From: a virus
Lineage: Duplodnaviria; Heunggongvirae; Uroviricota; Caudoviricetes
Direction: 5' to 3' (one strand)
DNA length: 17,828 nucleotides
Virus record (IMG/VR): IMGVR_UViG_2563366803_000003
In this document: positions 1-17,828 of the stretch, piece after piece
How positions within the stretch are numbered: position 1 is the first letter of the stretch
Layout: each line of letters opens with the position of its first letter
The notes under the pieces: generated by a model
The model's input: the letters and a program-made list of their open reading frames with translations, nothing else
Told to the model about the DNA's origin: nothing
Database searches by the model: none
Position numbers and translations under genes: made by a program

Positions 1-504
1 TTATTGATAGTGTTTTATGTTCAGATAATGCCCGATGACTTTGTCATGCAGCTCCACCGATTTTGAAAACGACAGCGACTTCCGTCCCAGCCGTGCCAGG
101 TGCTGCCTCAGATTCAGGTTATGCCGCTCAATTCGCTGCGTATATCGCTTGCTGATTACGTGCAGCTTTCCCTTCAGGCGGGATTCATACAGCGGCCAGC
201 CATCCGTCATCCATATCACCACGTCAAAGGGTGACAGCAGGCTCATAAGACGCCCCAGCGTCGCCATAGTGCGTTCACCGAATACGTGCGCAACAACCGT
301 CTTCCGGAGCCTGTCATACGCGTAAAACAGCCAGCGCTGGCGCGATTTAGCCCCGACATAGCCCCACTGTTCGTCCATTTCCGCGCAGACGATGACGTCA
401 CTGCCCGGCTGTATGTGCGAGGTTACCGACTGCGGCCTGAGTTTTTTAAGTGACGTAAAATCGTGTTGAGGCCAACGCCCATAATGCGGGCTGTTGCCCG
501 GCAT
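1..504 (-). CDS. insB: IS1 InsB (167 aa) transposase catalytic part, expressed as InsAB' by -1 frameshift
   Basis: Translation [25 protein letters not shown]... matches IS1 InsB as recalled. Confidence 0.95.
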
Positions 505-698
505 CCAACGCCATTCATGGCCATATCAATGATTTTCTGGTGCGTACCGGGTTGAGAAGCGGTGTAAGTGAACTGCAGTTGCCATGTTTTACGGCAGTGA
601 GAGCAGAGATAGCGCTGATGTCCGGCGGTGCTTTTGCCGTTACGCACCACCCCGTCAGTAGCTGAACAGGAGGGACAGCTGATAGAAACAGAAGCCAC
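423..698 (-). CDS. insA: IS1 InsA (91 aa, Cys4 zinc-finger/HTH transposition regulator)
   Basis: Translation [22 protein letters not shown]... matches IS1 InsA as recalled; A6C slippery site (gttttttaa on + strand near 442-450) precedes insB. Confidence 0.95.
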
Positions 699-753
699 TG
701 GAGCACCTCAAAAACACCATCATACACTAAATCAGTAAGTTGGCAGCATCACC

Positions 754-1236
754 CAGATAACGTAATATGGTCACTTCACGATTAGATAGCACAGTGACCG
801 TTGAACTATTCGTACTACATTTATTGCTTTTTATATAGTTAAGCGTTTCGCTGGGAAAAAACGTGTATCCGGAGAGGATCATCTGAACGGCATGAAAAAT
901 ATCATTCTGATCATTGCATTTACTGACAAAACCGTTAGCACCAGCTTGTATCGCTCTGCCAGCATAAAAGCATTCTGATTTCGATGATAAAAATAACACT
1001 TTCACTGTGCTCTGGATTTGTTTGATCCTTTTCAGGAAGGTAAAACCGTCTGTTCCGGGCAAGTCTATATCCATAATGATTAAATCAACAGGACGGGTTC
1101 GGAGATAATCGATGGTTATGCGGTAATCATCCGTTTTCAGGACAATCTGCAATTCACTGTTTTTTTGCAACAGAACTTCAATAGACATTCTGATGATAGG
1201 ATGAGTATCCATAATGATCACCGACGTTGGTTTCAT
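754..1236 (-). pseudogene. fimZ: fimZ (LuxR-family response regulator of fimbrial genes), 3' end interrupted by IS1; C-terminal HTH domain missing
   Basis: ORF MKPTSVIIMDTHPIIRMSIEVLLQKNSELQIVLKTDDYRI... receiver domain; reading frame runs into the IS1 terminus at 753 and ends with IS1-encoded residues GDAANLLI; fimZ is the known neighbour of argU. Confidence 0.85.
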
Positions 1237-1419
1237 AGTTACCAGTCTCATAGGAGCGGACAATTTTCCGTTAGGGCGGTAAATTGTACTTTGATACATG
1301 AAAATACGGGTTTTCTTGATTCAGACGCGCAGCGGTGTGCGTTTGTTTGCCGCTATAGCGAAATAAATCAGAAAATCAGACGCGGTCGTTCACTTGTTCA
1401 GCAACCAGATCAAAAGCCA

Positions 1420-1570: not shown

Positions 1571-2734
1571 TTACGCCTTCTTTATATCCTCCATAATTCC
1601 AGAGTGGGACATATTTGGGACATTATCACCAAAAATGTCGTCTATTTTCCTCGCATGCTCTGTCAAATGATTAGGCGCAAGGTGAGCATACCTACGAACC
1701 ATTTCTATGGACTCCCATCCGCCCATTTCCTGAAGCACTGATAATGGGACGCCTGACTGAATCAGCCAGCTTGCCCAGGTGTGTCTGAGGTCATGGAAAC
1801 GGAAATCTTCAATTCCTGCACGACGACAAGCTGATAGCCATGATGTCTTGCTGTCGATGCGCATCTTCCTGACCGCAGGCGTTGATGTTCCATCTGCTCG
1901 CTTAGCCGCCTTGGTATGTACAAACACCCATTTGTGATGCTTGCCTATTTGATCACGCAACACTTTACAGGCGGTATCGTTCAGCGCCACACCAATGGCG
2001 CGGTTTGATTTGCTCTCTTCTGGATTCACCCAGGCAACTCGTCGCTGCATGTCGATTTGTTGCCATTCCAGATTTATGATGTTCGACTTTCTCAGACCAG
2101 TTGCCAGCGCAAACTTGACGACAGATTTCAGTGGTTCGGGGCACTCATCAATAAGGCGTTTTGCTTCCTCCTTTTCCAGCCATCTGACTCGCTTGTTTCT
2201 GACCGCTGGTATCTTGATGACAGGCGCTTTTTCCAGCCACTTCCAGTCGCGTTCTGCAGCACGGAGAATGGCCTTTATCATGGCAAGATGCTTTGCCTTT
2301 GTCTGAGTTGATACTGGCTTTGGTTCATAAACAGGCAGTTCTTTACCTTTCCTGATGGCGGCCTGAACTTTCTGTTTCCATATTTCTTTCGTCTTTCTGT
2401 TATGCATTCTGCTTACAGCAGAGTAAATCTTTGCCTCCGAGATATCTTTAAGCCTTATACCCTCAAAATGTTCAAGCCAGAACTCAATCCGGCTTTTATC
2501 TGAATCGAGAGATTTTTTATCAGCTTTTTCCTCAAGCCATCTTAGGCAGGCCTCTTCAAAAGTGACATCAGGTAAATCCCCTAGCTTTTCTACTCGCCAG
2601 AGTTCTGCTTTTCGCTTGTCGTGCAACTCCTGAGCTTGCCGCTTGTCCTTTGTGCCAAGAGATTCCTTAATTCGTTTCCCGCCCGGGAGCGAATACGAGG
2701 CATACCATATTTCATTTCTGCGGAAGAGTGACAT
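1571..2734 (-). CDS. intD: Prophage tyrosine integrase (DLP12 IntD-like, 387 aa)
   Basis: C-terminal catalytic region with [10 protein letters not shown]... and ...VRRYAHL motifs (R-H-R-Y family); positioned 16 nt from the 3' end of argU. Confidence 0.93.
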
Positions 2735-2961
2735 TTTCTTTCCTCTGTTATGCCATCACCCGCGCTCACCTGGACAGTATGCAGCGGAGACTGAAGCGCC
2801 GCAATGCAGGCTTGCCGTGTTGTGAGGTAAGGAGATTTTGGCTTGGTTGGATCTTTACGTGTTGCCTGTAGGCGGCCTGTTCGTATCCAGTTGGTGGCGG
2901 TTGGTCTGGATATCTTAAGAAACTGACAGGCCTCATCGAGTGTGAGGCTGTATGATTCCAT
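2590..2961 (-). CDS. xis: Excisionase-like HTH protein (Xis), about 123 aa, overlapping the 5' end of int in another frame
   Basis: Start ATG at 2961 preceded by GAGGT SD; N-terminal [29 protein letters not shown] typical of excisionase/AlpA-type proteins; position upstream of int. Confidence 0.6.
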
Positions 2962-3211
2962 GGTTACCTCTGCTTTTTGAACGCATGTCACGTAACTTCT
3001 TAATGTGTTCTGCCGTTTCGATCTCTTCTGCTATCCGATCTGCATCAGCTTTATTCACAGGTTCAAAGTCATGATTAAAGCGGAACATGCTGGCGATACA
3101 TGTTCTGCCTTTTCGGATGTAGTGAACTTTGTTGTGGGTAGAACGCAGGATTTTGCAGGGAGTGCCGTGGTGGTCGACGTACCAGGTGTTAGGAAAAATG
3201 ATTCTGAACAT
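2933..3211 (-). CDS. Small Cys/His-containing phage protein (92 aa), possibly lambda Ea8.5-like by size and position next to xis
   Basis: ORF with GAGGTG SD 6 nt upstream of ATG at 3211; contains HH..C...H..H...C pattern; lambda Ea8.5 is 93 aa and lies next to xis. Confidence 0.4.
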   Translation of the reverse strand: MFRIIFPNTWYVDHHGTPCKILRSTHNKVHYIRKGRTCIASMFRFNHDFEPVNKADADRIAEEIETAEHIKKLRDMRSKSRGNHGIIQPHTR

Positions 3212-3258
3212 TTTTACACCTCAGTTGGACGATGTTGAAATTTGCTGCTTTGAGGCCA

Positions 3259-3477
3259 TCACAGTCCCCATTGTTTGTTCTTAAGTTCGATCTCCTCCTG
3301 GCAACTTGCACAAGTCCGACAACCCTGAACAGCCAGGCGTCTTCGCTCATCTATCGGATCGCCACACTCACAACAATGAGTTGCGGATACAGTCTGGTAG
3401 TTCTGACGACGCATTTTTATTGCTGTATTGCGCTGTAATTCTTCGATTTCTGATGCTGAATCAATGATGTCTGCCAT
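3259..3477 (-). CDS. TraR/DksA-family C4 zinc-finger protein (72 aa)
   Basis: CxxC-x17-CxxC signature (CCECGDPIDERRRLAVQGCRTCASC) typical of phage TraR/DksA-like proteins. Confidence 0.65.
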   Translation of the reverse strand: MADIIDSASEIEELQRNTAIKMRRQNYQTVSATHCCECGDPIDERRRLAVQGCRTCASCQEEIELKNKQWGL

Positions 3478-3529
3478 CTTCCATTAATCCCTGAATTGTT
3501 GGTTAATACGCTTGAGGATGAATGCGAAT

Positions 3530-3556
3530 AATAAAAAAGGAGCCTGTAGCTCCCTG
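3530..3556 (-). terminator. Possible rho-independent terminator (short GC stem ggagc/gctcc followed by T6 on minus strand)
   Basis: Hairpin 3539-3553 with A-tract 3533-3538 on + strand (= T-tract on minus), 20 nt downstream of the 3576 stop. Confidence 0.35.
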
Positions 3557-3575
3557 ATGATTTTGCTTTTCATGT

Positions 3576-3857
3576 TCATCGCTCCTTAAAGACGCCGTTT
3601 AACATGCCGATCGCCAGACTTAAATGAGTCGGTGTGAATCCCATCAGCGTTACCGTTTCGCGGTGCTTCTTCAGTACGCTACGGCAAATGTCATCGACGT
3701 TTTTATCCGGAAACTGCTGTCTGGCTTTTTTGATTTCAGAGTTAGCCTGACGGGCAATGCTGCGAAGGGCGTTTTCTTGCTGAGGTGTCATTGAACAAGT
3801 CCCATGTCGGCAAGCATAAGCACACAGAATATGAAGCCCGCTGCCAGAAAAATGCAT
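3576..3857 (-). CDS. Hypothetical lambdoid b-region protein (93 aa; alternative start at 3791 gives 72 aa)
   Basis: ORF in the minus-strand early-left gene string between xis and exo; no recognisable motif. Confidence 0.4.
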   Translation of the reverse strand: MHFSGSGLHILCAYACRHGTCSMTPQQENALRSIARQANSEIKKARQQFPDKNVDDICRSVLKKHRETVTLMGFTPTHLSLAIGMLNGVFKER

Positions 3858-3867
3858 TCAGTGGTTG

Positions 3868-4059
3868 TCATACCTGGTCTCTCTCATCTGCTTCTGCTTT
3901 CGCCACCATCATTTCCAGCTTTTGTGAAAAGGATGCGGCTAACGTATGAAATTCTTCGTCTGTTTCTACTGGTATTGGCACAAACCTGACTCCAATTTGA
4001 GCGAGGCTATGTGCCATCTCGATACTCGTTCTTAACTCAACGGGAGATGCTTTGTGCAT
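3868..4059 (-). CDS. Small lambdoid early protein, 63 aa (lambda orf63-like by size and position)
   Basis: GGGAG SD upstream of ATG at 4059; same orientation and tight packing with exo-proximal genes. Confidence 0.45.
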   Translation of the reverse strand: MHKASPVELRTSIEMAHSLAQIGVRFVPIPVETDEEFHTLAASFSQKLEMMVAKAEADERDQV

Positions 4060-4220
4060 ACAGCTCCCCGTTTATTATTTATCTCCTCAGCCAGCCGCTG
4101 TGCTTTCAGTGGATTTCTGATAACAGAAAGGCCGGGAAATACCCAGCCTCGCTTTGTAATGGAGTAGACGAAAGTGATCGCGCCTACCCGGATATTATCG
4201 TGAGGATGCGTCATCGCCAT
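4032..4220 (-). CDS. Small lambdoid early protein, 62 aa (lambda orf60a-like by position immediately upstream of exo)
   Basis: ORF overlapping exo start region; GGGGAG upstream of ATG at 4220. Confidence 0.45.
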
Positions 4221-4891
4221 TGCTCCCCAAATACAAAACCAATTTCAGCCAGTGCCTCGTCCATTTTTTCGATGAACTCCGGCACCATCTCGTCAAAACT
4301 CGCCATGTACTTTTCATTCCGCTCAATCACGACATAATGCAGGCCTTCACGCTTCATGCGCGGGTCATAGTTGGCAAAGTACCAGGCATCTTTTCGCGTC
4401 ACCCACATGCTGTACTGCACCTGGGCCATGTAAGCCGATTTTATTGCCTCGAAACCACCGAGCCGGAATTTCATGAAATCCCGGGAGGTAAACGGGCATT
4501 TCAGTTCAAGGCCGTTGCCGTCACTGCATAAACCATCGGGAGAGCAGGCGGTGCGCATACTTTCGTCGCGATAGATGATCGGGGATTCAGCAATATTCAC
4601 GCCGGAAGTGAATTCAAACAGGGTTCTGGCGTCGTTCTCGTACTGTTTTCCCCAGGCCAGCGCCTTAGCATTAACTTCCGGAGCCACACCGGTGCAAACC
4701 TCAGCCAGCAGGGTGTGGAAGTAGGACATTTTCATGTCAGGCCACTTCTTTCCTGAGCGGGGCTTTGCTATCACGTTGTGAACTTCTGAAGCGGTGATGA
4801 CGCCGAGCCGTAATTTGTGCCATGCATCATCCCCCTGTTCGACAGCTCTCACGTCGATCCCGGTACGCTGCAGGATAATGTCCGGTATCAT
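4211..4891 (-). CDS. exo: Lambda-type 5'-3' exonuclease Exo (Red-alpha), 226 aa
   Basis: Translation [65 protein letters not shown]... is near-identical to lambda Exo as recalled; same length. Confidence 0.95.
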
Positions 4892-5673
4892 GCTGCCACC
4901 TTCTGCTCAGTGGCTTTCTGTTTCAGGAATCCAAGAGCTTTCACTGCTTCGGCCTGTGTCATTTCTGACGATGCGCGAATGTCGCGGCGAAATATCTGGG
5001 AACAGAGCGGCAATAAGTCGTCATCCCATGTTTTATCCAGGGCGATCAGCAGAGTGTTAATCTCCTGCATGGTTTCATCGTTAACCGGAGTGATGTCGCG
5101 TTCTGGCTGACGTTCTGCAGTGTATGCAGTATTTTCGACAATGCGCTCGGCTTCATCCTTGTCATAGATACCAGCAAATCCGAAGGCCAGACGGGCACAC
5201 TGAATCATTGTTTTATGCCGTAACATCCGTTTGGGATGCGACTGCCACGGCCCCGTGATTTCTCTGCCTTCGCGGGTTTTGAATGGTTCGCGGCGGCATT
5301 CATCCATCCATTCGGTAACGCAGATCGGATGATTACGGTCCTTGCGGTAAATCCGGCATGTACAGGATTCATTGTCCTGCTCAAAGTCCATGCCATCAAA
5401 CTGCTGGTTTTCATTGATGATGCGGGACCAGCCATCAACGCCCACCACCGGAACAATGCCGTTCTGCTTATCAGGGAAGGCGTAAATTTCTTTCGTCCAC
5501 GGATTAAGGCCGTACTGGTTGGCGACGATCAACAATGCGATGAACTGCGCATCGCTGGCATCACCTTTAAATGCCGTCTGGCGAAGAGTGGTGATCAGTT
5601 CCTGTGGGTCGACAGAATCCATGCCGACACGTTCAGCCAGCTTCCCTGCCAGCGTTGCGAGTGCTGTACTCAT
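4888..5673 (-). CDS. bet: Lambda-type single-strand annealing protein Bet (Red-beta), 261 aa
   Basis: Translation [66 protein letters not shown]... matches lambda Bet; ATGA overlap with exo as in lambda. Confidence 0.95.
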
Positions 5674-5678
5674 CCGTT

Positions 5679-5975
5679 TTATACCTCTGAATCAATATCA
5701 ACCTGGTGGTGAGCAATGGTTTCAACCATGTACCGGATGTGTTCTGCCATGCGCTCCTGAAACTCAACATCGTCATCAAACGCACGGGTAATGGCTTTTT
5801 TGCTGGCCCCGCAGCGTTGCAAATGATCGATGCAGAGTGATTCAAACAGGTGCTGTGGAAGACCTTTTTCCATGTCGTCTGCCAGTTCTGACTCTTTCTC
5901 TTCACGGGCGATCTGCTGGTAGTGACGTGCCCAGCTCAGACCCTCAAGACGATCCTGAATGTAATAAGCGTTCAT
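5679..5975 (-). CDS. gam: Lambda Gam (RecBCD inhibitor), 98-aa GamS-length form
   Basis: Translation [56 protein letters not shown]... matches lambda Gam. Confidence 0.93.
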
Positions 5976-6050
5976 GGCTGAACTCCTGAAAATGGCTGTG
6001 AAAATATCGCCCGCGAAATGCCAGGCTGATTAGGAAAACAGGAAAGGGGA

Positions 6051-6257
6051 TTAGTGATTCAGGCCATTACCGCGTCCGTCGAAAAAAACTTCCACGAGCA
6101 AATCACGGGTATAAGTGCGCTCGATGCCGCGATGCAGATATAGCCGTCCGCGTAAATTAGCTGATGCAGTCCAGGTACCATCTTTGTGTTTGACCAGCAT
6201 TCCTGGCATGACCGCACCTCGATTAACGGTCTGCGTTCCGTAATGTTGATGAACCAT
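6051..6257 (-). CDS. Small early-left protein (68 aa from ATG at 6257 with AGGAG SD), possibly Kil-like host division inhibitor by position next to gam; in-frame upstream extension to 6461 is Arg-rich
   Basis: Strong SD (AGGAGTTTTT-ATG) at the internal start; first ORF downstream of the predicted pL; function assigned by synteny only. Confidence 0.4.
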
Positions 6258-6529
6258 AAAAACTCCTGCCCGTAAGCTGGGCTGCTGAACATATAGAGAC
6301 TTCTGCGCGTATTCAGGCGGTGGATGGCCGCCGGTTGTCATAACTAAGCCGCCTCGTTGAAGCGACTGAGGTATGAGGTGTTGAGTTGATTTCAGCTGGT
6401 CACACCGACGTTCACGCGTCCGTTTCACCCCTCGCACTCCCCGGAGCCTGCCGAAATTCAAGCTGCGGATCTAAGCGGTCATCGCAACGGTGAATCAGGT
6501 GGTTGCCGTATCGTTGTGTTGTTGCGACA

Positions 6530-6600
6530 TGGTGATAATAGCTATTGCTATTGGTGGTATCAATACTTATTGCTATTGATTGATGTGTTTTGATATTAAC
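6530..6600 (-). promoter_or_regulatory. Predicted pL/oL: minus-strand -35 TTGATA (+ coords 6558-6563) and -10 TATTAT (6535-6540) with 17-bp spacer, overlapped by repeated GCTATTG operator-like motifs
   Basis: Hexamers and spacing read directly; motif TTGCTATTG (6545-6553, 6570-6578) is shared with the cI-cro intergenic region. Confidence 0.4.
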
Positions 6601-6712
6601 TGTTTGATAGCAAAAAGAATTAATTTTGTGACTTGCATCGCATAGCGATAACTGAAGGGAGGTTGTGGTGGTTTTTCGAACGGTTTGTGTGATGAGGGGA
6701 GGGGACAAAAGA

Positions 6713-6745
6713 AAACCCGGCACGGTGGCCGGGACGTTTTATTTC
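6713..6745. terminator. Bidirectional rho-independent terminator (stem cccggc...gccggg, flanked by T-runs on both strands); likely end of the cI operon (tImm-like)
   Basis: aaaacccggcacggtggccgggacgttttatttc immediately after the stop of the 6739-7251 gene. Confidence 0.65.
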
Positions 6746-7251
6746 AAAGAAAAATTATGACTAGCGTATCTTGGAAGAAATTCATATAGTGTTAATGTCT
6801 TAACGCCGTGAGAAGCAGCAGCATCCGGGATCATTATTCTTTTTTTAGGTTTGCCACCGGATGGTTTCTCATGGGTAATAATAGTATATCCATGTGTCAT
6901 CGCATGGGCTATTAAAAAAGCATCTGCTTTTTCATGGCTTGCAAAATCAAACTTTGCCTTTTCGGTAACATCTAATTTAGTTGACCAATTTATTAACTTT
7001 GCATAATTTTCTATTGAACTATGCTCATCTTCGAAGAATGATGATGGTAACTCTTCTTTAATCCATTTACACAATGGATCATCTTTTGCACATAGTTCTT
7101 TTTTTACAGCATTAATGCTATAAATCAGACCATTCATGTGTAAAGCGAGAAGAAAATCCCAAAATATTTTGCAATAATTGAAGTTATATGCAAAGTTTTT
7201 TGCCTCTATGAAGACATTACTATCAATTAAGAATTTTCCATTATGAATCAT
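6739..7251 (-). CDS. DUF4411-type PIN-like putative nuclease (170 aa); candidate effector of a two-gene defense/toxin module
   Basis: Size, N-terminal FLIDSNVFI strand with conserved Asp and later acidic residues fit a PIN-like fold; ATGA start/stop overlap with upstream metallopeptidase gene; AT-rich composition. Confidence 0.6.
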   Translation of the reverse strand: MIHNGKFLIDSNVFIEAKNFAYNFNYCKIFWDFLLALHMNGLIYSINAVKKELCAKDDPLCKWIKEELPSSFFEDEHSSIENYAKLINWSTKLDVTEKAKFDFASHEKADAFLIAHAMTHGYTIITHEKPSGGKPKKRIMIPDAAASHGVKTLTLYEFLPRYASHNFSLK

Positions 7252-8387
7252 AGAGATTCTCGTTTTTTATAAAATTCAACAACTGTATCTGCTTTTACAT
7301 TTAGCAGTACGCCTGCTTCCCTTAATGGTAATTGTTGAGACATTGCTTTGGAAATTATTATATTCGTAAGTTTTGGACTGTTACGAACAGGTAATGTGTT
7401 AAAGAAAGAACCACCATTAGATTCTTTTTTGGGCTTATTGTAAGCTTGATCTTTAATTATCTCCAAAGTGTTTCTTTCTATCAAATCTAATTGTAACGCT
7501 TTGATTGCACAAGCGAAATCACTAACCTTAAATAACTTAGAAACCTCTTTTACTCGATAATAATTATTATCGCTGGATGCATTAAGCCAGAAAGATTTGA
7601 AGAGATTATCAGGCATTAAGATTTCAGCAGCAACTTTATTACAAAAAGATTCTATGTTTTTTTCTGTGTCCCACCCAGAGACTCCATCGACTCCAAGCCA
7701 AAGATGAGCCACCTCATGAAATAATGTAAATACCTGCGCAGATAACGCGTCCGAGCTATTTACAAAAATGATCGGAGCAACGCTATCAGATATACAGAAA
7801 CCACGAAACTCTCGCGTGTCAAGTTTTCTTTTATTATTATTACCCACAACACCATTCTTGAAAACTAATACGCCAGTGTCTTCTATTAGTTTTGCCACTT
7901 TAGAAAAATAGCTCTCAAAAGTGACATTTTTTATCTCTTTTTGTATATCAAAATGTATTGTGTTTGCTATGTCTGTAGCAACAACCTTATAATTTAATTT
8001 TCTATTAAATTTAAATTTACCAATAAAATCGAGTGGATCATCATTACCATTTTCTCTTAAATAGTCTTTGTACCACTCAAGTTTATATTCTATATCATAG
8101 TAAACATCAAAAAAATCTTTTCCTAACTCACGGCTATTTATAGCTTGCCTTAAGTCAGGGATCTTGGGTTTGGCTGGAGTTGGTGGCGTTTCAAGAAATA
8201 AAAAACCGAAAGGGATTCCTCCAATTTTTGCCAGTTTTTCTGCTGCGGATTTACTTACCACTCCGTTAAGAAATTTATTAATCTTTTTGGGCATGACTTG
8301 GTCAGCAAGAGTTTCGATAGAAACTCCTTGAGAATTTGCTATCCAATCAATCATCTTCCTAGACAATTGAAATTCAACCGCTGCCAT
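7248..8387 (-). CDS. HTH + ImmA/IrrE-family (COG2856/M78-like) zinc metallopeptidase, 379 aa
   Basis: HExxH motif in FTLFHEVAHLWLG; N-terminal HTH-like segment (IDWIANSQGVSIETLADQV); AGGTGA SD upstream of ATG at 8387; translationally coupled to DUF4411 gene. Confidence 0.7.
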   Translation of the reverse strand: MAAVEFQLSRKMIDWIANSQGVSIETLADQVMPKKINKFLNGVVSKSAAEKLAKIGGIPFGFLFLETPPTPAKPKIPDLRQAINSRELGKDFFDVYYDIEYKLEWYKDYLRENGNDDPLDFIGKFKFNRKLNYKVVATDIANTIHFDIQKEIKNVTFESYFSKVAKLIEDTGVLVFKNGVVGNNNKRKLDTREFRGFCISDSVAPIIFVNSSDALSAQVFTLFHEVAHLWLGVDGVSGWDTEKNIESFCNKVAAEILMPDNLFKSFWLNASSDNNYYRVKEVSKLFKVSDFACAIKALQLDLIERNTLEIIKDQAYNKPKKESNGGSFFNTLPVRNSPKLTNIIISKAMSQQLPLREAGVLLNVKADTVVEFYKKRESL

Positions 8388-8516
8388 GTTATCACCTAGT
8401 TAAAAAAAACTATTATTCAACAATTATTGTTGTGCACCTGATAGCTAACGTCAAGCCTAATTTATTGCCTTACTACAGTAAGCTGAAAAGCGAAGTGCAT
8501 AATTTTGTTCTGATTT

Positions 8517-9209
8517 CTACCCATGCTTTCTATATGTCTGCGGCATGCTCCCGATGACTTTCCCGAAGATGAACACGCGGTTCATCTCGTCTTTCTCGAT
8601 CGGGTCCCACGGTGAGTAGCTCTTGTTATCAGAGATAACCAGCAGCTTATCCTTCATCATTTGCAGGCGCTTTACATGGGCGGTGTCGTCATACAGAAAC
8701 GCATAGATACCATCACCGTCGAAAGATTTAACAGTGATATCAACGAACAGAAGATCACCTGGTTCGATCGTTCCTGACATGCTGTCACCGCGTACGTTAA
8801 TGATGCGGATATTTTCTGCCTTCCTGCCATCGAACATGTGACGAGCATCGTCAAACGAGTACTCAACCGAGCGTAGAACTTCTACAAACTCACGGTTGAT
8901 GACTCCCGGCCCGGCACTCACTTCTATATCAAGAACGTCAATCTTGAAGTATTTGGGATGGTTGGCAGTAGGCTTCCCTAATTGTTGACCGTCATTTCTC
9001 ATCGGGCCTATGCCTGATGAGAGCCACTCTGTTCGAACACCCAATGCATTAGCTATTTCAACAATTTTTGTTGAGCCGCGCGCGTTGCCGCTTGTCAGTC
9101 TCCAGATTGTGGGTTGAGCTACCCCAGACGCCTTTGCAAGAGCGCCTTGAGACATTCCAGATTGTTCCATCGCTAGGTTTAAGCGATCAGCAAGAGTTTC
9201 TTTTTTCAT
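8517..9209 (-). CDS. cI: cI-type prophage repressor (N-terminal XRE HTH + C-terminal S24/LexA-like autopeptidase), about 230 aa, leaderless
   Basis: HTH segment LADRLNLAMEQSGMSQGALAKASGVAQPTIWRL; S24 peptidase signature around GDSMSGTIEPGDLLFVD with downstream Lys (HVKRL); ATG at 9209 lies 7 nt after a -10 hexamer. Confidence 0.85.
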   Translation of the reverse strand: MKKETLADRLNLAMEQSGMSQGALAKASGVAQPTIWRLTSGNARGSTKIVEIANALGVRTEWLSSGIGPMRNDGQQLGKPTANHPKYFKIDVLDIEVSAGPGVINREFVEVLRSVEYSFDDARHMFDGRKAENIRIINVRGDSMSGTIEPGDLLFVDITVKSFDGDGIYAFLYDDTAHVKRLQMMKDKLLVISDNKSYSPWDPIEKDEMNRVFIFGKVIGSMPQTYRKHG

Positions 9210-9319
9210 AAGTTTTAATTTATACGCTTGCGTATTGATGGTCAAAACACGTTTTGCTATTGTTATGATTAATACGCATTGCTATTATTTATTCATTGCA
9301 ATACCAATAGGAATTGATA
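9210..9319. promoter_or_regulatory. Divergent immunity control region. Predicted pRM on minus strand (-35 TTGACC at + 9240-9245, -10 TAAATT at 9217-9222, leaderless cI) and pR on plus strand (-35 TTGTTA 9260-9265, -10 TATTAT 9283-9288); operator-like repeats TTGCTATT and palindromes
   Basis: Hexamers and 17-bp spacings read directly; motif shared with 6540-6580. Confidence 0.5.
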
Positions 9320-9547
9320 ATGACAAATCAAACCATTCAACTCGCAATCAGTATTACAGGTAGTCAAAAACGACTGGCAGATCTATGCGGTGTAGCCCAA
9401 CCCACTGTTTGGCGTTGGCTACACGGTGGCGGAATTGATGCCCGCTATGTAATGAAAATTGTCTCAGCCACTGGTGGAAAGATTAAACCAGCAGATATTC
9501 GTCCCGACCTCGCACCATTGTTTAACGCGAGTAATTCTGCCGCCTAA
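9320..9547 (+). CDS. cro: Cro-like HTH regulator of the YdaS family (about 75 aa)
   Basis: HTH segment GSQKRLADLCGVAQPTVWRWL; AGGAA SD 6 nt upstream of ATG 9320; divergent from cI. Confidence 0.7.
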   Translation: MTNQTIQLAISITGSQKRLADLCGVAQPTVWRWLHGGGIDARYVMKIVSATGGKIKPADIRPDLAPLFNASNSAA

Positions 9548-9571
9548 ACTGCGGCGTTAACTGATAAGGCA

Positions 9572-10117
9572 ATGACTATGCAACCACTTACATACCAACA
9601 GACTAGCGGATTTAGCCCGACTGTGGTGATAAATCGTTCTCAAACAAAACAAGCTCCAGGCCACGAAAAAATCCGTGATGCCGTCCGCGCCTGGTCGGCT
9701 GCAGATAATCAGGATGTTGTTGCCGCACTCATTGTGAATGAGTATCGGGAGCAGGGCGGCGGCACCATCGATTTCCCTGATGATGTCAGCCGTGCACGCC
9801 AGAAGCTGTTCCGCTTCCTCGATAACAAATTCGATTCTGAAAAATACCGAAATAACGTGCGTGAACTGACCCCGGCAATTCTGGCGGTACTACCGCTGGA
9901 ATATCGCGGTTACCTGGTTGAGCAGGATAGCTTTATGGCTAGGTTGGCTGAAATGGAAAAGGAACTCAGTGAGGCAAAACAGGCTGTCATTCTCAACGCA
10001 CCACGCCACCAGAAACTGAAGGAGATGAGTGAAGGCATTGTGTCGATGTTTCGAGTGGACCCGGATCTGGCTGGTCCATTGATGGCGATGGTCACCACCA
10101 TGCTGGGGGCAATATGA
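9572..10117 (+). CDS. YdaT-family protein (181 aa), occupying the cII position
   Basis: Recalled resemblance (..EYREQGGG.., ..LTPAILAVLP..) to Rac YdaT-type proteins; always paired with YdaS-type cro; position between cro and O. Confidence 0.5.
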   Translation: MTMQPLTYQQTSGFSPTVVINRSQTKQAPGHEKIRDAVRAWSAADNQDVVAALIVNEYREQGGGTIDFPDDVSRARQKLFRFLDNKFDSEKYRNNVRELTPAILAVLPLEYRGYLVEQDSFMARLAEMEKELSEAKQAVILNAPRHQKLKEMSEGIVSMFRVDPDLAGPLMAMVTTMLGAI

Positions 10118-12784: not shown

Positions 12785-13624
12785 ATGAAAAAAGCCATAG
12801 CATATATGCGATTTTCATCACCAGGTCAGATGTCTGGTGACTCATTAAACCGACAGAGAAGACTTATTGCTGAATGGTTAAAGGTAAATAGTGATTATTA
12901 TCTTGATACCATAACATATGAAGATTTAGGATTAAGTGCATTCAAAGGAAAGCATGCACAATCAGGAGCTTTTTCGGAATTTTTAGATGCTATAGAGCAT
13001 GGTTATATATTGCCAGGAACTACATTGTTAGTTGAAAGTCTGGACAGACTTTCAAGAGAAAAAGTCGGTGAAGCGATTGAACGTCTGAAATTGATTTTGA
13101 ATCACGGTATTGATGTTATAACTCTTTGCGACAATACAGTCTATAATATTGACTCTTTGAATGAGCCATATTCATTAATAAAAGCCATACTTATAGCACA
13201 AAGGGCAAATGAAGAAAGCGAGATAAAGTCAAGTCGGGTTAAATTATCATGGAAGAAAAAACGGCAGGATGCAATGGAATCAGGTACGATTATGACGGCG
13301 TCTTGTCCGAGATGGCTCTCCTTAGATGACAAAAGAACGGCTTTTGTTCCAGACCCCGACAGGGTGAAAACTATTGAGCTAATTTTTAAACTCAGGATGG
13401 AAAGGCGCTCATTGAATGCAATAGCCAAGTATTTAAATGATCATGCTGTAAAGAATTTCTCAGGAAAAGAAAGTGCATGGGGACCTTCTGTAATTGAAAA
13501 ATTATTAGCGAATAAAGCTCTGATAGGTATATGCGTACCTTCATATCGTGCAAGAGGGAAAGGGATAAGTGAAATCGCTGGCTATTATCCCAGAGTTATA
13601 TCAGATGATTTGTTTTACGCTGTA
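12785..13624 (+). pseudogene. ybcK: ybcK-like serine recombinase, truncated after about 280 codons by IS1
   Basis: N-terminal resolvase-type catalytic domain (AIAYMRFSSPGQMSGDSLNRQRR... with catalytic Ser), reading frame runs into IS1 left terminus at 13625. Confidence 0.8.
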
Positions 13625-13639
13625 GGTAATGACTCCAAC

Positions 13640-14143
13640 TTATTGATAGTGTTTTATGTTCAGATAATGCCCGATGACTTTGTCATGCAGCTCCACCGAT
13701 TTTGAAAACGACAGCGACTTCCGTCCCAGCCGTGCCAGGTGCTGCCTCAGATTCAGGTTATGCCGCTCAATTCGCTGCGTATATCGCTTGCTGATTACGT
13801 GCAGCTTTCCCTTCAGGCGGGATTCATACAGCGGCCAGCCATCCGTCATCCATATCACCACGTCAAAGGGTGACAGCAGGCTCATAAGACGCCCCAGCGT
13901 CGCCATAGTGCGTTCACCGAATACGTGCGCAACAACCGTCTTCCGGAGACTGTCATACGCGTAAAACAGCCAGCGCTGGCGCGATTTAGCCCCGACATAG
14001 CCCCACTGTTCGTCCATTTCCGCGCAGACGATGACGTCACTGCCCGGCTGTATGCGCGAGGTTACCGACTGCGGCCTGAGTTTTTTAAGTGACGTAAAAT
14101 CGTGTTGAGGCCAACGCCCATAATGCGGGCTGTTGCCCGGCAT
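13640..14143 (-). CDS. insB: IS1 InsB (the longer 194-aa ORF in the track is the out-of-frame upstream extension used for InsAB' frameshifting)
   Basis: Same frame and sequence as copy A InsB, with one amino-acid difference (H vs R). Confidence 0.93.
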
Positions 14144-15306: not shown

Positions 15307-16389
15307 TTAGAACTGGTAAACCATACCTACAGCAACGATATCATCGGTAGCAACGCCAGATGCTTTCGTGAAATCGCTCTTATCAATCAGGTTGATTTTG
15401 TAGTCAACAAAAGTGGACATATTTTTGTTGAAGTAATAGGTTGCACCTACATCAACATATTCAACCAGGTCCTGATCACCCCAAACACCCAAGTCTTTTC
15501 CTTTAGAATGCAGGTAAGCAACGGATGGACGCAGGCCGAAGTCGAACTGATATTGTGCAACAGCTTCGAAGTTTTGTGCTTTGTTGGCAATATGGTTATT
15601 ACCAAAAACAGTCATGTTCTGGGTTTCAGAATAGGTGGTGGCCAGATAGATGTTGTTCGCATCATATTTCAGACCAGCTGCCCATACTTCAGCATTTTGA
15701 CCAGAAGCATTCAGACCGTTGTTACCGTAGATAACCTGATTATTAGTGCGATCAGATTTAGCATAGGTTGCACCTACACCGAATCCTTCATACTCATAAG
15801 TAGTGGAGAAACCGAAACCATCACCATTAGCTTCAGTTACGTCAGTGCGGTCATTTTTACCCTGATACTGAGCAGCAAAGTTCAGACCATCAACCAGACC
15901 AAAGAAGTCGTTGTTACGATAAGTTGCAACACCAGTGGTGCGACCAGTCATGAACACATCTGTTTGAGTCCAAGTGTCACCACCGAATTCTGGCAGGACG
16001 TCAGTCCACGCACCGATGTCGTATGCTACACCGTAGTTACGGCCGTAATCGATGGAGCCGTAGTCACCGAATTTCAGGCCAGCGAAGGCAAGACGGGTTT
16101 TATCTTTGGAGGAACCTTGAGATTCAGCGCGGTTGCCTTTGAATTCATATTCCCACTGACCGAAACCAGTCAGTTGATCGTTGATTTGGGTTTCACCTTT
16201 GAAGCCAAGACGGGCATAAGTAGTATCACCATCATCTGCATCATTAGAGGAGAAGTAGTGCTTAGCATTAACTTTCCCGTACAGATCCAGCTTGTTACTG
16301 TCTTTATTATAAATTTCAGCTGCCTGAGCAGACATCGCCATCAGTACTGATGCAGCTACAGCAGAAATTGCCACTGTTAATTTTTTCAT
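15307..16389 (-). CDS. nmpC: Outer-membrane general porin of the NmpC/OmpD/OmpC family, intact (360 aa with signal peptide)
   Basis: Signal peptide [23 protein letters not shown], beta-barrel porin sequence ending ...VGMVYQF; opposite orientation to the phage late genes (moron). Confidence 0.9.
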
Positions 16390-16978: not shown

Positions 16979-17194
16979 ATGAAATCCATGGATAAGTTAA
17001 CAACGGGTGTCGCCTATGGCACCTCAGCAGGTAGTGCCGGTTACTGGTTTTTACAGCTGCTCGATAAAGTCACGCCCTCACAGTGGGCAGCAATAGGTGT
17101 GCTGGGTAGCCTGGTATTTGGCCTGCTGACGTACCTGACAAACCTTTATTTCAAGATTAAAGAAGATAAGCGCAAGGCTGCGAGAGGTGAATAA
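16979..17194 (+). CDS. essD: Class II holin / pinholin of the S21 family (71 aa) with dual-start motif MKSMDK
   Basis: Translation [71 protein letters not shown]; two TM segments; stop overlaps endolysin start (TAATG). Confidence 0.85.
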
Positions 17195-17599
17195 TGCCTC
17201 CATCATTACGAAAAGCCGTTGCTGCTGCTATTGGTGGCGGAGCAATTGCTATAGCATCAGTGTTAATCACTGGCCCAAGTGGTAACGATGGTCTGGAAGG
17301 TGTCAGCTACATACCATACAAAGATATTGTTGGTGTATGGACCGTATGTCACGGGCATACAGGAAAAGACATCATGCTCGGTAAAACGTATACCAAAGCA
17401 GAATGCAAAGCACTCTTGAATAAAGACCTTGCCACTGTCGCCAGACAAATTAACCCATACATCGAAGTCGATATACCGGAAACAACGCGCGGCGCTCTTT
17501 ACTCATTCGTTTACAACGTGGGTGCTGGCAATTTCAGAACATCGACGCTTCTTCGCAAAATAAACCAGGGCGATATCAAAGGCGCATGTGATCAGTTAC
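17194..17599 (+). pseudogene. rrrD: SAR-endolysin (RrrD/R21-like lysozyme) truncated near codon 135 by IS2 insertion
   Basis: N-terminal signal-anchor-release segment [20 protein letters not shown]; lysozyme core; frame continues into the IS2 terminus giving a chimeric tail [16 protein letters not shown]. Confidence 0.8.
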
Positions 17600-17828
17600 T
17601 AGACTGGCCCCCTGAATCTCCAGACAACCAATATCACTTATTTAAGTGATAGTCTTAATACTAGTTTTTAGACTAGTCATTGGAGAACAGATGATTGATG
17701 TCTTAGGGCCGGAGAAACGCAGACGGCGTACCACACAGGAAAAGATCGCAATTGTTCAGCAGAGCTTTGAACCGGGGATGACGGTCTCCCTCGTTGCCCG
17801 GCAACATGGTGTAGCAGCCAGCCAGTTA
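17600..17828 (+). mobile_element. IS2 (IS3 family), terminal part only; continues beyond window
   Basis: Terminus tagactggccccctgaatctccagacaaccaatatcacttaa and downstream orfA (insC) start match IS2 as recalled. Confidence 0.85.
17691..17828 (+). CDS. insC: IS2 OrfA (InsC) transposase N-terminal part, partial at window end
   Basis: Translation [46 protein letters not shown]. Confidence 0.85.

What the first reader, a model, noticed from the sequence alone, without database searches (positions are those of the whole stretch)
2933..3477. Two small zinc-binding proteins in the b-region replace lambda ea22
A 92-aa Cys/His-containing protein (Ea8.5-like by size and position) and a 72-aa TraR/DksA-type C4 zinc-finger protein lie between xis and the orf63/orf60a-like genes. 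TraR/DksA-like phage proteins can bind the RNA polymerase secondary channel and reprogram host transcription, so this is a plausible host-takeover function in a region known for accessory cargo.
Basis: partly seen in the sequence, partly recalled or inferred. Interest (0 to 1): 0.35.

Follow-up and report, generated by a model that had tools for sequence, protein, structure and literature searches.

The report
Lambda Orf73 homologue plus RgdR-family protein
The two small genes are real but ordinary: one is the counterpart of phage lambda's already-studied Orf73, a zinc-finger protein that binds RNA polymerase, and the other is a small beta-barrel protein of the known DUF4222/RgdR prophage family, with no evidence that it binds zinc or resembles lambda Ea8.5.

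Summary
Both ORFs exist on the minus strand at the stated coordinates (92 aa at 2933-3211, 72 aa at 3259-3477). [quoted passage not shown]

**72-aa protein.** It does not replace ea22. It is the ortholog of lambda orf73 (86% aa identity), and lambda DNA homology (96.65%) ends inside its 3' end. It passes Pfam zf-dskA_traR and keeps every TraR/Orf73 hallmark: DxxDxA tip, CxxC-x17-CxxC, ExxRL. Published work shows lambda Orf73 binds RNA polymerase, shuts down rRNA and r-protein promoters, and raises burst size.

**92-aa protein.** It shows no similarity to Ea8.5. It belongs to Pfam DUF4222, the family of the EHEC prophage regulator RgdR (24-27% identity, RGD motif absent).
- Its Cys and His residues are not conserved across the family; C19 is V or I in most members.
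- The AlphaFold model is a Tudor/SH3-like beta-barrel followed by a long helix, not a zinc fold.

This single gene takes the place of lambda ea22, ea8.5 and orf55 and travels with the int-xis module. Identical annotated genes occur in phage Lambda_2G7b, and about 800 E. coli genomes hold at least 80% of the surrounding 1.8 kb. The finding is already known and of low interest.

The parts
3259..3477 (-). Ortholog of lambda orf73: a 72-aa TraR-family protein that binds the RNAP secondary channel. Features: DxxDxA tip (D3, D6, A8); C4 zinc finger (C35, C38, C56, C59) plus two extra Cys (C36, C53); E44xxR47L48.
   Evidence: Pfam PF01258 37.3 bits, above the gathering score of 24.9. phrog_54 DksA-like, E 3.4e-26. 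86% identity to lambda orf73. Full-length match to TraR PDB chains. Motif alignment. dN/dS 0.23 against lambda.
2933..3211 (-). 92-aa DUF4222 (RgdR-family) protein. Predicted five-stranded Tudor/SH3-like beta-barrel (about residues 10-52), a long C-terminal helix (54-82), and a disordered tail (83-92) that overlaps the xis start.
3212..3282 (.). 47-nt spacer between the two genes plus the last ~8 codons of the orf73 ortholog. This is the mosaic junction where lambda homology stops.
   Evidence: blastn: window 3282-6057 matches lambda 30418-33193 at 96.65%, and nothing to the left matches. The C-termini differ between the window and lambda Orf73.
2590..2961 (-). Excisionase (xis). The likely ATG start at 2961 overlaps the DUF4222 3' end by 29 nt and the int 5' end by 145 nt.
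   Evidence: phrog_2907 excisionase E 4.4e-46, covering 116 of 117 profile positions; Pfam HTH_17. Sequence read.
1571..2734 (-). DLP12-type tyrosine integrase (intD) next to tRNA-Arg(UCU) argU at 1479-1555.
   Evidence: ORF list. RefSeq annotation of a 99.2% identical locus. ARAGORN. K-12 DLP12 layout.
3537..3555 (-). Terminator-like hairpin followed by a T-run, just upstream of the orf73 ortholog and inside the lambda-homologous DNA.
   Evidence: Consensus scan. This is a pattern match only; function was not tested.
3576..3857 (-). Full-length orf61-like gene (93 aa; RefSeq calls a 71-aa version).
   Evidence: phrog_303 E 2.5e-43. Comparison with the truncated lambda orf61. PMC8614690 section 4.4.
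3868..4220 (-). orf63 (DUF1382, 3868-4059) and orf60a (DUF1317, 4032-4220) homologues, followed by exo and bet.
   Evidence: Pfam PF07131 E 3.9e-31 and PF07026 E 2e-39. Lambda annotation.

Best explanation
The interval holds the last two accessory genes of the leftward early (exo-xis) operon of a mosaic lambdoid prophage integrated at argU.

Gene 1 (3259-3477, minus strand) is the ortholog of lambda orf73, a TraR-family protein. By homology, its N-terminal helix inserts into the RNA polymerase secondary channel and places the DxxDxA tip near the active site. Its C4 zinc-finger globular domain and C-terminal helix contact the rim helices, beta'Si3 and betaSi1. Without needing ppGpp, it inhibits rRNA and ribosomal-protein promoters after prophage induction. 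This diverts host resources and raises phage yield.

Gene 2 (2933-3211, minus strand) is a DUF4222 protein, a distant paralogue of the EHEC prophage/PICI regulator RgdR. It is a basic (pI 9.9) Tudor/SH3-like beta-barrel with a long C-terminal helix and no family-level zinc site. It most likely acts as a small modulator of host gene expression. It would work through a protein-protein contact or low-affinity nucleic-acid contact made by the barrel, not through sequence-specific DNA binding.

Gene 2 belongs to the int-xis module and stands where lambda carries ea22, ea8.5 and orf55.

Shown here: gene identities, motifs, fold class, synteny and the mosaic junction. Inferred by homology: the RNAP mechanism of gene 1. 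Inferred weakly: any mechanism for gene 2.
For: Gene 1:
- Pfam zf-dskA_traR is above the gathering score.
- 86% identity and synteny with lambda orf73, with 96.65% DNA homology to lambda from 3282 to 6057.
- D6, A8, C35, C38, R46, R47, C56 and C59 are invariant across Orf73 homologues and F TraR (D3 is conserved in most but is E in one homologue). ExxRL matches lambda's version of the motif.
- Experiments on lambda Orf73 are published in PMC9239242.

Gene 2:
- PF13973 at 69.4 bits.
- RgdR is described as a DUF4222 protein. It activates LEE1 and T3S, represses motility, and binds DNA only weakly and non-specifically.
- The CFT073 orthologue aligns at E 1e-6.
- The AF2 barrel region has pLDDT ~90.
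- Neither the PDB nor the BFVD lists contain a zinc fold.
- Across family representatives C19 is V/I in 53 of 75, and the His positions are variable.

Context:
- The same gene order occurs in phage Lambda_2G7b, with 100% identity for the 92-aa protein.
- DUF4222 sits immediately upstream of xis in phi24B, and one small ORF upstream of an HTH_17 (xis-type) gene in a Salmonella prophage.
Against: - No experiment was done on these exact proteins.
- The window Orf73 differs from lambda's in its last ~8 residues and scores just below the NCBIfam TIGR02419 subfamily cut-off (54.8 against 59.7).
- The single-sequence AF2 model of it is low confidence (pLDDT 57).
- The 92-aa protein lacks RgdR's RGD motif and K35 and is only 24-27% identical, so RgdR's phenotypes may not transfer.
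- Within its own close clade, C19, C38 and H30 are well conserved, H15 and H26 less so. A clade-specific metal site therefore cannot be formally excluded without model coordinates.
- No N-like antiterminator is visible in the window, and a terminator-like hairpin precedes orf73. Expression level is therefore uncertain.
Confidence: 0.8

Rival explanations
1. One reading: both proteins bind zinc, and the 92-aa protein is a functional analogue of lambda Ea8.5 (fused homeodomain/zinc-finger).
For: The size is similar (92 against 93 aa) and the position next to xis is the same. It has 2 Cys and 8 His. C19, C38 and H30 are conserved, and H15/H26 less so, within the closest clade.
Against: - No BLASTP alignment to Ea8.5 at E<=100.
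- The predicted fold is an all-beta barrel plus helix.
- In the wider family C19 is V/I, and no His is conserved.
- The strand register implies that C19 and C38 face the core about two rows apart. This is inferred from DSSP, not measured.
Confidence: 0.04
2. The DUF4222 protein is an RNA-polymerase-binding Tudor domain. It would dock on the beta-subunit lobe or protrusion, as the UvrD/PcrA C-terminal domain, CarD RID and Mfd RID do. In that case the interval encodes two different RNAP-targeting proteins.
For: - RgdR has pleiotropic promoter effects with only weak non-specific DNA binding, and its authors proposed it acts as a co-factor.
- A TraR-family gene is often nearby.
Against: - Foldseek finds no PDB hit with E<=1e-3.
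- hhalign against the E. coli UvrD C-terminus gives probability 0.4%.
- Adjacency to TraR is not obligatory (loci L009, L010, L012; PICI L003).
Confidence: 0.13
3. The DUF4222 protein is an accessory factor of the integration/excision module, for example a modulator of Xis/Int or of excision timing, rather than a host-transcription factor.
For: - It lies left of the lambda homology breakpoint, in the same non-lambda DNA segment as int-xis.
- Its 3' end overlaps the xis start by 29 nt.
- Homologues sit immediately upstream of xis in phi24B and close to it in SfI and a Salmonella prophage.
Against: - In E. coli PICIs the family member sits directly upstream of the primase gene, far from int.
- In Citrobacter and other E. 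coli prophages, several unrelated small ORFs separate it from xis.
- The only characterised member affects host promoters.
Confidence: 0.08

Closest known systems
Bacteriophage lambda Orf73 (TraR family; Gopalkrishnan et al. 2022, mBio, PMC9239242)
   Same: 86% aa identity and the same length within one residue. Same position between orf61 and the variable distal genes. DxxDxA tip, CxxC-x17-CxxC finger, the two extra cysteines at TraR positions 38 and 55, the RR pair, and the ExxRL motif are all retained.
   Different: The last ~8 residues differ (EEIELKNKQWGL against EDLELISKQRGSK) because the mosaic junction falls inside the 3' end. The downstream neighbour is DUF4222 rather than ea22. The window shows no lambda N or lambda-type immunity region.
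F-plasmid TraR (PDB 5W1S, 6N57; RNAP secondary-channel regulator)
   Same: Full-length alignment (E 6.5e-5), 32% identity, same three-part layout, same metal ligands and acidic tip.
   Different: Six rather than four cysteines. For lambda Orf73 this was proposed to explain its lack of promoter activation. Phage rather than plasmid context.
RgdR (ECs1581) of EHEC O157:H7 CP-933C/OI-51, and the rgdR genes of E. coli PICIs (Flockhart et al. 2012, PMC3378721)
   Same: Same Pfam family (DUF4222). Similar size (92 against 99 aa). Barrel-core positions shared (Y11, D13, G16, I21, Y31, R33, G35, C38, F45, F49). Carried on a mobile element.
   Different: Only 24-27% identical. The RGD motif is replaced by PNT, and RgdR K35 aligns with L22. 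It sits at the xis-proximal end of a lambdoid early operon rather than upstream of a PICI primase. Effects on LEE or motility are untested.
Lambda Ea8.5 (PDB 2M7A, fused homeodomain/zinc-finger)
   Same: Size, and position next to xis.
   Different: No sequence similarity, a different predicted fold class, and no conserved metal ligands.
UvrD/PcrA C-terminal Tudor domain; CarD and Mfd RNAP-interacting domains
   Different: No detectable sequence or profile similarity. It is a stand-alone protein with an added long helix. RNAP binding is untested.

Membership tests
TraR/DksA family (Pfam PF01258), TraR-like subgroup including lambda Orf73 | Match to the zf-dskA_traR profile above the curated threshold | tested here: met
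   37.3 bits against a gathering score of 24.9, residues 33-64. phrog_54 'DksA-like zinc-finger protein', E 3.4e-26.
TraR/DksA family (Pfam PF01258), TraR-like subgroup including lambda Orf73 | C4 zinc finger CxxC-x17-CxxC | tested here: met
   C35-x2-C38-x17-C56-x2-C59 aligns column for column with the TraR ligands. Metal content itself cannot be tested here.
TraR/DksA family (Pfam PF01258), TraR-like subgroup including lambda Orf73 | N-terminal helix carrying the DxxDxA tip motif | tested here: met
   D3-I-I-D6-S-A8. D6 and A8 are invariant in alignment A3. The motif's role is described in PMC9239242.
TraR/DksA family (Pfam PF01258), TraR-like subgroup including lambda Orf73 | Residues equivalent to TraR R48/R49 (rim helices, beta'Si3) and the ExxR(K/L) motif | tested here: met
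   R46 and R47 are invariant. E44-x-x-R47-L48 equals lambda's ExxRL.
TraR/DksA family (Pfam PF01258), TraR-like subgroup including lambda Orf73 | Short (~73 aa) three-part architecture with a C-terminal helix bearing an acidic residue | tested here: inconclusive
   72 aa, with E61/E62/E64 present (E64 invariant). AF2 single-sequence gives H6-33 and H56-70, but mean pLDDT is only 57.
TraR/DksA family (Pfam PF01258), TraR-like subgroup including lambda Orf73 | NCBIfam TIGR02419 (C4_traR_proteo) subfamily cut-off | tested here: not met
   54.8 bits against a cut-off of 59.7. This is a narrow miss. RefSeq still names the near-identical protein (in a 99.2%-identical locus) 'TraR/DksA family transcriptional regulator'.
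TraR/DksA family (Pfam PF01258), TraR-like subgroup including lambda Orf73 | Orthology with lambda orf73 (sequence plus synteny) | tested here: met
   86% identity. It lies between the orf61 homologue and the distal genes. DNA homology of 96.65% reaches into the gene.
TraR/DksA family (Pfam PF01258), TraR-like subgroup including lambda Orf73 | Binds RNAP and inhibits rRNA/r-protein promoters without ppGpp | not testable with these tools
   Shown for lambda Orf73 and four other homologues in PMC9239242. Inferred here by homology.
DUF4222 (Pfam PF13973) / RgdR family | Match to the DUF4222 profile above the curated threshold | tested here: met
   69.4 bits against a gathering score of 27, covering profile positions 1-53 of 53. 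phrog_285 E 3.2e-38.
DUF4222 (Pfam PF13973) / RgdR family | RgdR orthology as defined by Flockhart et al. (>77% over 99 aa) | tested here: not met
   19-27% identity to the RgdR clade. This is a separate subfamily.
DUF4222 (Pfam PF13973) / RgdR family | RGD motif (residues 20-22) and K35, which are important for T3S activation | tested here: not met
   RGD aligns with P7-N8-T9, and K35 aligns with L22 (alignment A1; residue roles).
DUF4222 (Pfam PF13973) / RgdR family | Carried by prophages or phage satellites of Enterobacterales | tested here: met
   117 phage records. Prophage contexts. PICI context. Only 99 clusters at 50% identity among 1.84 billion proteins.
DUF4222 (Pfam PF13973) / RgdR family | Alters host transcription (LEE1 activation, motility repression) | not testable with these tools
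   Known only for ECs1581 and c1493.
Lambda Ea8.5 (homeodomain/zinc-finger, PDB 2M7A) | Sequence similarity to Ea8.5 | tested here: not met
   No BLASTP alignment at E<=100.
Lambda Ea8.5 (homeodomain/zinc-finger, PDB 2M7A) | Conserved Cys/His zinc ligands and a helical/zinc-finger fold | tested here: not met
RNAP-interacting Tudor domains (UvrD/PcrA CTD, CarD/Mfd RID) | Tudor-like five-stranded barrel | tested here: met
RNAP-interacting Tudor domains (UvrD/PcrA CTD, CarD/Mfd RID) | Detectable sequence or profile homology | tested here: not met
   hhalign of A2 against E. coli UvrD residues 635-720 gives probability 0.4%. A PDB profile search gives a best E of 0.35.
RNAP-interacting Tudor domains (UvrD/PcrA CTD, CarD/Mfd RID) | Binds the RNAP beta subunit | not testable with these tools
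   No complex prediction or binding assay is available here.

The most novel reading that the evidence does not exclude
DUF4222/RgdR proteins are free-standing Tudor domains that dock on the RNA polymerase beta lobe, as UvrD/PcrA CTD or CarD do. This would explain RgdR's pleiotropic effects, which occur without sequence-specific DNA binding. Many lambdoid prophages would then carry a two-protein cassette that hits RNAP at two sites: Orf73 in the secondary channel and at betaSi1/beta'Si3, and DUF4222 on the lobe.
Probability: 0.12. Interest if true: 0.55.

Novelty: already known. Interest (0 to 1): 0.14.

Why it matters
The finding matters little beyond correct annotation.

The TraR-like gene is a textbook-adjacent case. 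Lambda Orf73 has been shown to reprogram host transcription, and this prophage simply carries the same gene.

The useful corrections are:
- Ea22, Ea8.5 and Orf55 are replaced by a single DUF4222 gene that travels with the DLP12-type int-xis module.
- This protein should be filed with the RgdR family of prophage/PICI regulators, not with zinc proteins.

The prophage type occurs in LEE-positive O26 and O103 STEC strains, among others. A distant RgdR paralogue there is therefore a minor candidate for prophage-host regulatory cross-talk.

The Tudor-like fold offers a testable lead on how the RgdR family works. Its mechanism was left open in the RgdR literature read here.

Tried and rejected
- **Ea8.5 homology:** BLASTP negative. 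Rejected.
- **Sequence search of the PDB for the 92-aa protein:** nothing with the single sequence, and best E 0.35 with the family profile.
- **NCBIfam and PADLOC for the 92-aa protein:** no hits, so there is no evidence for a defence-system role.
- **Family-wide zinc site:** rejected from ligand conservation. A clade-specific site could not be tested geometrically because model coordinates are not returned.
- **hhalign of the DUF4222 profile against the E. coli UvrD C-terminus:** no signal. The Tudor resemblance is fold-level only.
- **Single-sequence AF2 of the Orf73 ortholog:** pLDDT 57, too poor for a fold search.
- **afdb50 fold search:** the library was unavailable. BFVD was used instead and gave only uncharacterised small phage barrels.
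- **Obligate DUF4222/TraR pairing:** rejected. Several prophages and the PICIs have one without the other.
- **Literature search for phi24B vb_24B_1c:** no papers.

Full report
**Setting.** The window is E. coli chromosomal DNA. From left to right:
- An IS1 copy (1 to about 730) truncates fimZ.
- tRNA-Arg(UCU) argU lies at 1479-1555.
- It is followed by a DLP12-type integrase (1571-2734, minus strand) and an excisionase.

This is the attachment site of the cryptic prophage DLP12. K-12 retains only intD, xisD' and exoD' there. The window carries a much more complete lambdoid prophage.

On the minus strand, reading from exo towards int, the genes are: bet, exo, orf60a (DUF1317), orf63 (DUF1382), an orf61-like gene, the 72-aa gene, the 92-aa gene, xis and int. 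This is the exo-xis region of the leftward early operon, not the b region.

**Observation.**
- They are real genes, with strong profile matches.
- dN/dS is 0.10-0.20 for the 92-aa gene against homologues from Salmonella, Citrobacter and another E. coli prophage. It is 0.23 for the 72-aa gene against lambda.
- 816 of 5426 complete E. coli genomes hold at least 80% of the surrounding 1.8 kb (window 2500-4300).
- In a 99.2%-identical RefSeq locus the two genes are annotated 'DUF4222 domain-containing protein' and 'TraR/DksA family transcriptional regulator'.
- The same gene order, with a 100% identical 92-aa protein, is found in phage Lambda_2G7b.

**The 72-aa protein.** Lambda itself has a 73-aa ORF between ea22 and orf61. 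It is not annotated in NC_001416 but is known in the literature as orf73.
- The window protein is 86% identical to it.
- blastn shows that window 3282-6057 matches lambda 30418-33193 at 96.65%. The homology stops inside the last ~8 codons of this gene.
- The gene is therefore lambda's conserved orf73, not something that replaces ea22.
- It exceeds the Pfam zf-dskA_traR gathering score (37.3 against 24.9 bits).
- It narrowly misses the NCBIfam TIGR02419 subfamily cut-off (54.8 against 59.7).
- It aligns end to end with F-plasmid TraR chains solved on RNA polymerase (5w1s_M, 6n57_M).

All published hallmarks of the family are present (alignment):
- the DxxDxA tip (D3, D6, A8);
- CxxC-x17-CxxC (C35, C38, C56, C59);
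- the two extra cysteines peculiar to lambda Orf73 (C36, C53);
- the RR pair (R46, R47);
- ExxRL (E44...R47-L48);
- acidic residues in the C-terminal segment.

Gopalkrishnan et al. 2022 (PMC9239242) reported several results for lambda Orf73:
- it binds RNAP;
- it inhibits rrnB P1 and rpsT P2 in vitro and in vivo;
- it slows host growth;
- it raises phage yield about four-fold after induction.

Ribosome profiling cited in that paper had already shown expression from pL. My single-sequence AF2 model was too weak to add anything (pLDDT 57; helices 6-33 and 56-70).

**The 92-aa protein.**
- It has no similarity to Ea8.5 (no BLASTP alignment at E<=100). Ea8.5 is PDB 2M7A.
- It is a full-length match to Pfam DUF4222 (69.4 bits) and to PHROG 285.
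- The one characterised member of DUF4222 is RgdR (ECs1581) of the EHEC O157:H7 element CP-933C/OI-51. RgdR activates the LEE1 promoter and type III secretion, represses motility, and binds DNA only weakly and non-specifically. It is also carried by the analysed E. coli PICIs.
- I fetched the CFT073 PICI. Its RgdR orthologue c1493 lies directly upstream of the primase gene and aligns with the window protein at 27% identity, E 1e-6.
- The window protein belongs to a different subfamily. RgdR's RGD motif aligns with P7-N8-T9, and K35 aligns with L22.
- The family is small: 99 clusters at 50% identity among 1.84 billion proteins.
- All named homologues come from enterobacterial genomes, and the matching phage records are from enterobacterial phages.

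**Zinc.** The protein has two Cys and eight His.
- Within its close clade, C19, C38 and H30 are well conserved, and H15 and H26 less so.
- In the RgdR clade only C38 remains.
- Across 75 family representatives, C19 is V or I in 53, C38 is C in 53, and no His position is conserved. A third clade lacks both cysteines.
- The family-conserved positions are Y11, D13, G16, I21, Y31, R33, G35, C38, F45 and F49, which I read as a fold core rather than a ligand set (inference).
- AlphaFold2 with a 76-sequence alignment gives pLDDT 80.6, about 90 over residues 11-60. The model has strands 10-12, 18-24, 28-33, 36-41 and 50-52, a short helix at 42-48, and a long helix at 54-82.
- From the hairpin register, C19 and C38 lie on the core-facing side about two rows and two strands apart. 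That is too far for a shared site.
- Foldseek finds no PDB hit at E<=1e-3, only generic small barrels. BFVD returns uncharacterised phage mini-barrels.
- No zinc ribbon, treble clef or homeodomain fold appears.
- hhalign against the E. coli UvrD C-terminus is negative (probability 0.4%). No family member has a solved structure.

**Context of DUF4222.** The gene lies left of the lambda homology breakpoint, so it sits in the same non-lambda segment as int-xis. Its last 29 nt overlap the xis start.
- In phi24B the homologue vb_24B_1c is the gene immediately upstream of xis, and ea22-like and other genes separate it from the TraR-like gene.
- In a Salmonella prophage it directly follows a TraR-family gene and lies one small ORF upstream of an HTH_17 (xis-type) gene.
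- In Citrobacter and other E. coli prophages the TraR gene may be absent or one gene away.
- In PICIs there is no TraR gene.

The pairing is therefore frequent but not obligatory. In this prophage the single DUF4222 gene stands where lambda has ea22, ea8.5 and orf55.

**Mechanism.**
- For the Orf73 ortholog I commit to the TraR mechanism by homology (high confidence).
- For the DUF4222 protein I commit to a small, basic (pI 9.9) Tudor-like adaptor that modulates host gene expression. It would act through a protein or low-affinity nucleic-acid contact, as proposed for RgdR. Confidence in the family and fold is high. Confidence in the mechanism is low.

**Verdict.**
- Both genes are already annotated in identical or near-identical form in RefSeq and phage records.
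- Interest is low.

Noticed in passing
window 6739-8387 (minus strand): A 379-aa HTH + Peptidase_M78 (ImmA/IrrE-like) protein has PADLOC hits to capP and RmrA (E 1e-14 to 1e-7). It is followed by a 170-aa DUF4411 (PIN-like) protein. The pair lies directly downstream of the S24 repressor gene (8517-9245), which is the position of rexAB in lambda. This is a candidate RosmerTA-like toxin-antitoxin or defence cargo. DUF4411 itself has no PADLOC hit.
   Followed up: partly
window 3282 and 6057; 6051-10117: The prophage is a mosaic. Only 3282-6057 (orf73 to gam) is lambda-like, at 96.65%. The neighbouring early region resembles E. coli's Rac prophage (from my own knowledge of Rac's gene set; the tools show only the family names): a phrog_294 'Kil protein for bacterial septation inhibition' at 6051 to about 6290, and YdaS/YdaT-family genes at 9314-10117. 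No N-like antiterminator gene was seen.
   Followed up: partly
window 3537-3555 (minus strand): A terminator-like hairpin (AGGGAGCTACAGGCTCCTT followed by TTTTATTATT) lies between the orf61-like gene and the orf73 ortholog, inside lambda-homologous DNA. With no N-like gene seen in the window, it could limit expression of orf73, DUF4222, xis and int. A 31-aa ORF (3484-3579) spans it.
   Followed up: no
window 2590-2961 (minus strand): The excisionase ORF overlaps the integrase 5' end by 145 nt and the DUF4222 3' end by 29 nt. In CP053731 RefSeq reduces it to a 66-nt pseudogene fragment, yet it covers 116 of 117 positions of the PHROG 2907 excisionase profile (E 4.4e-46).
   Followed up: partly
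proteins P0015 and P0017 ('ybl17'), homologues of window 2933-3857: Many E. coli genomes carry a deletion allele that fuses the orf61-like gene in frame to DUF4222 from residue L22. This removes the orf73 ortholog altogether. It may reflect loss of a growth-inhibiting gene from resident prophages.
   Followed up: no
window 3576-3857 versus lambda L002:3213-3525: Reference lambda orf61 (61 aa) is a frameshifted version of the 93-aa gene present here and in Stx phages. Its C-terminal part is still readable in lambda as a separate 60-aa ORF. The truncation is already noted in PMC8614690.
   Followed up: yes
window 1-1299: An IS1 copy (insA/insB ORFs at 1-698) is inserted in the 3' end of fimZ (727-1299). 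This replaces the normal C-terminus of the regulator.
   Followed up: no
window 12785-13705 and 15307-16389: Further right, the prophage carries a serine recombinase (Resolvase + Recombinase domains) and a Gram-negative porin gene (Porin_1, E 3e-152), upstream of a phage lysozyme gene at 17194-17649.
   Followed up: no
L003 (E. coli CFT073 PICI) 4946-6996: In the PICI EcCICFT073, the RgdR orthologue (DUF4222, 99 aa) overlaps the start of the primase gene by 4 nt, which suggests translational coupling to the replication module.
   Followed up: no
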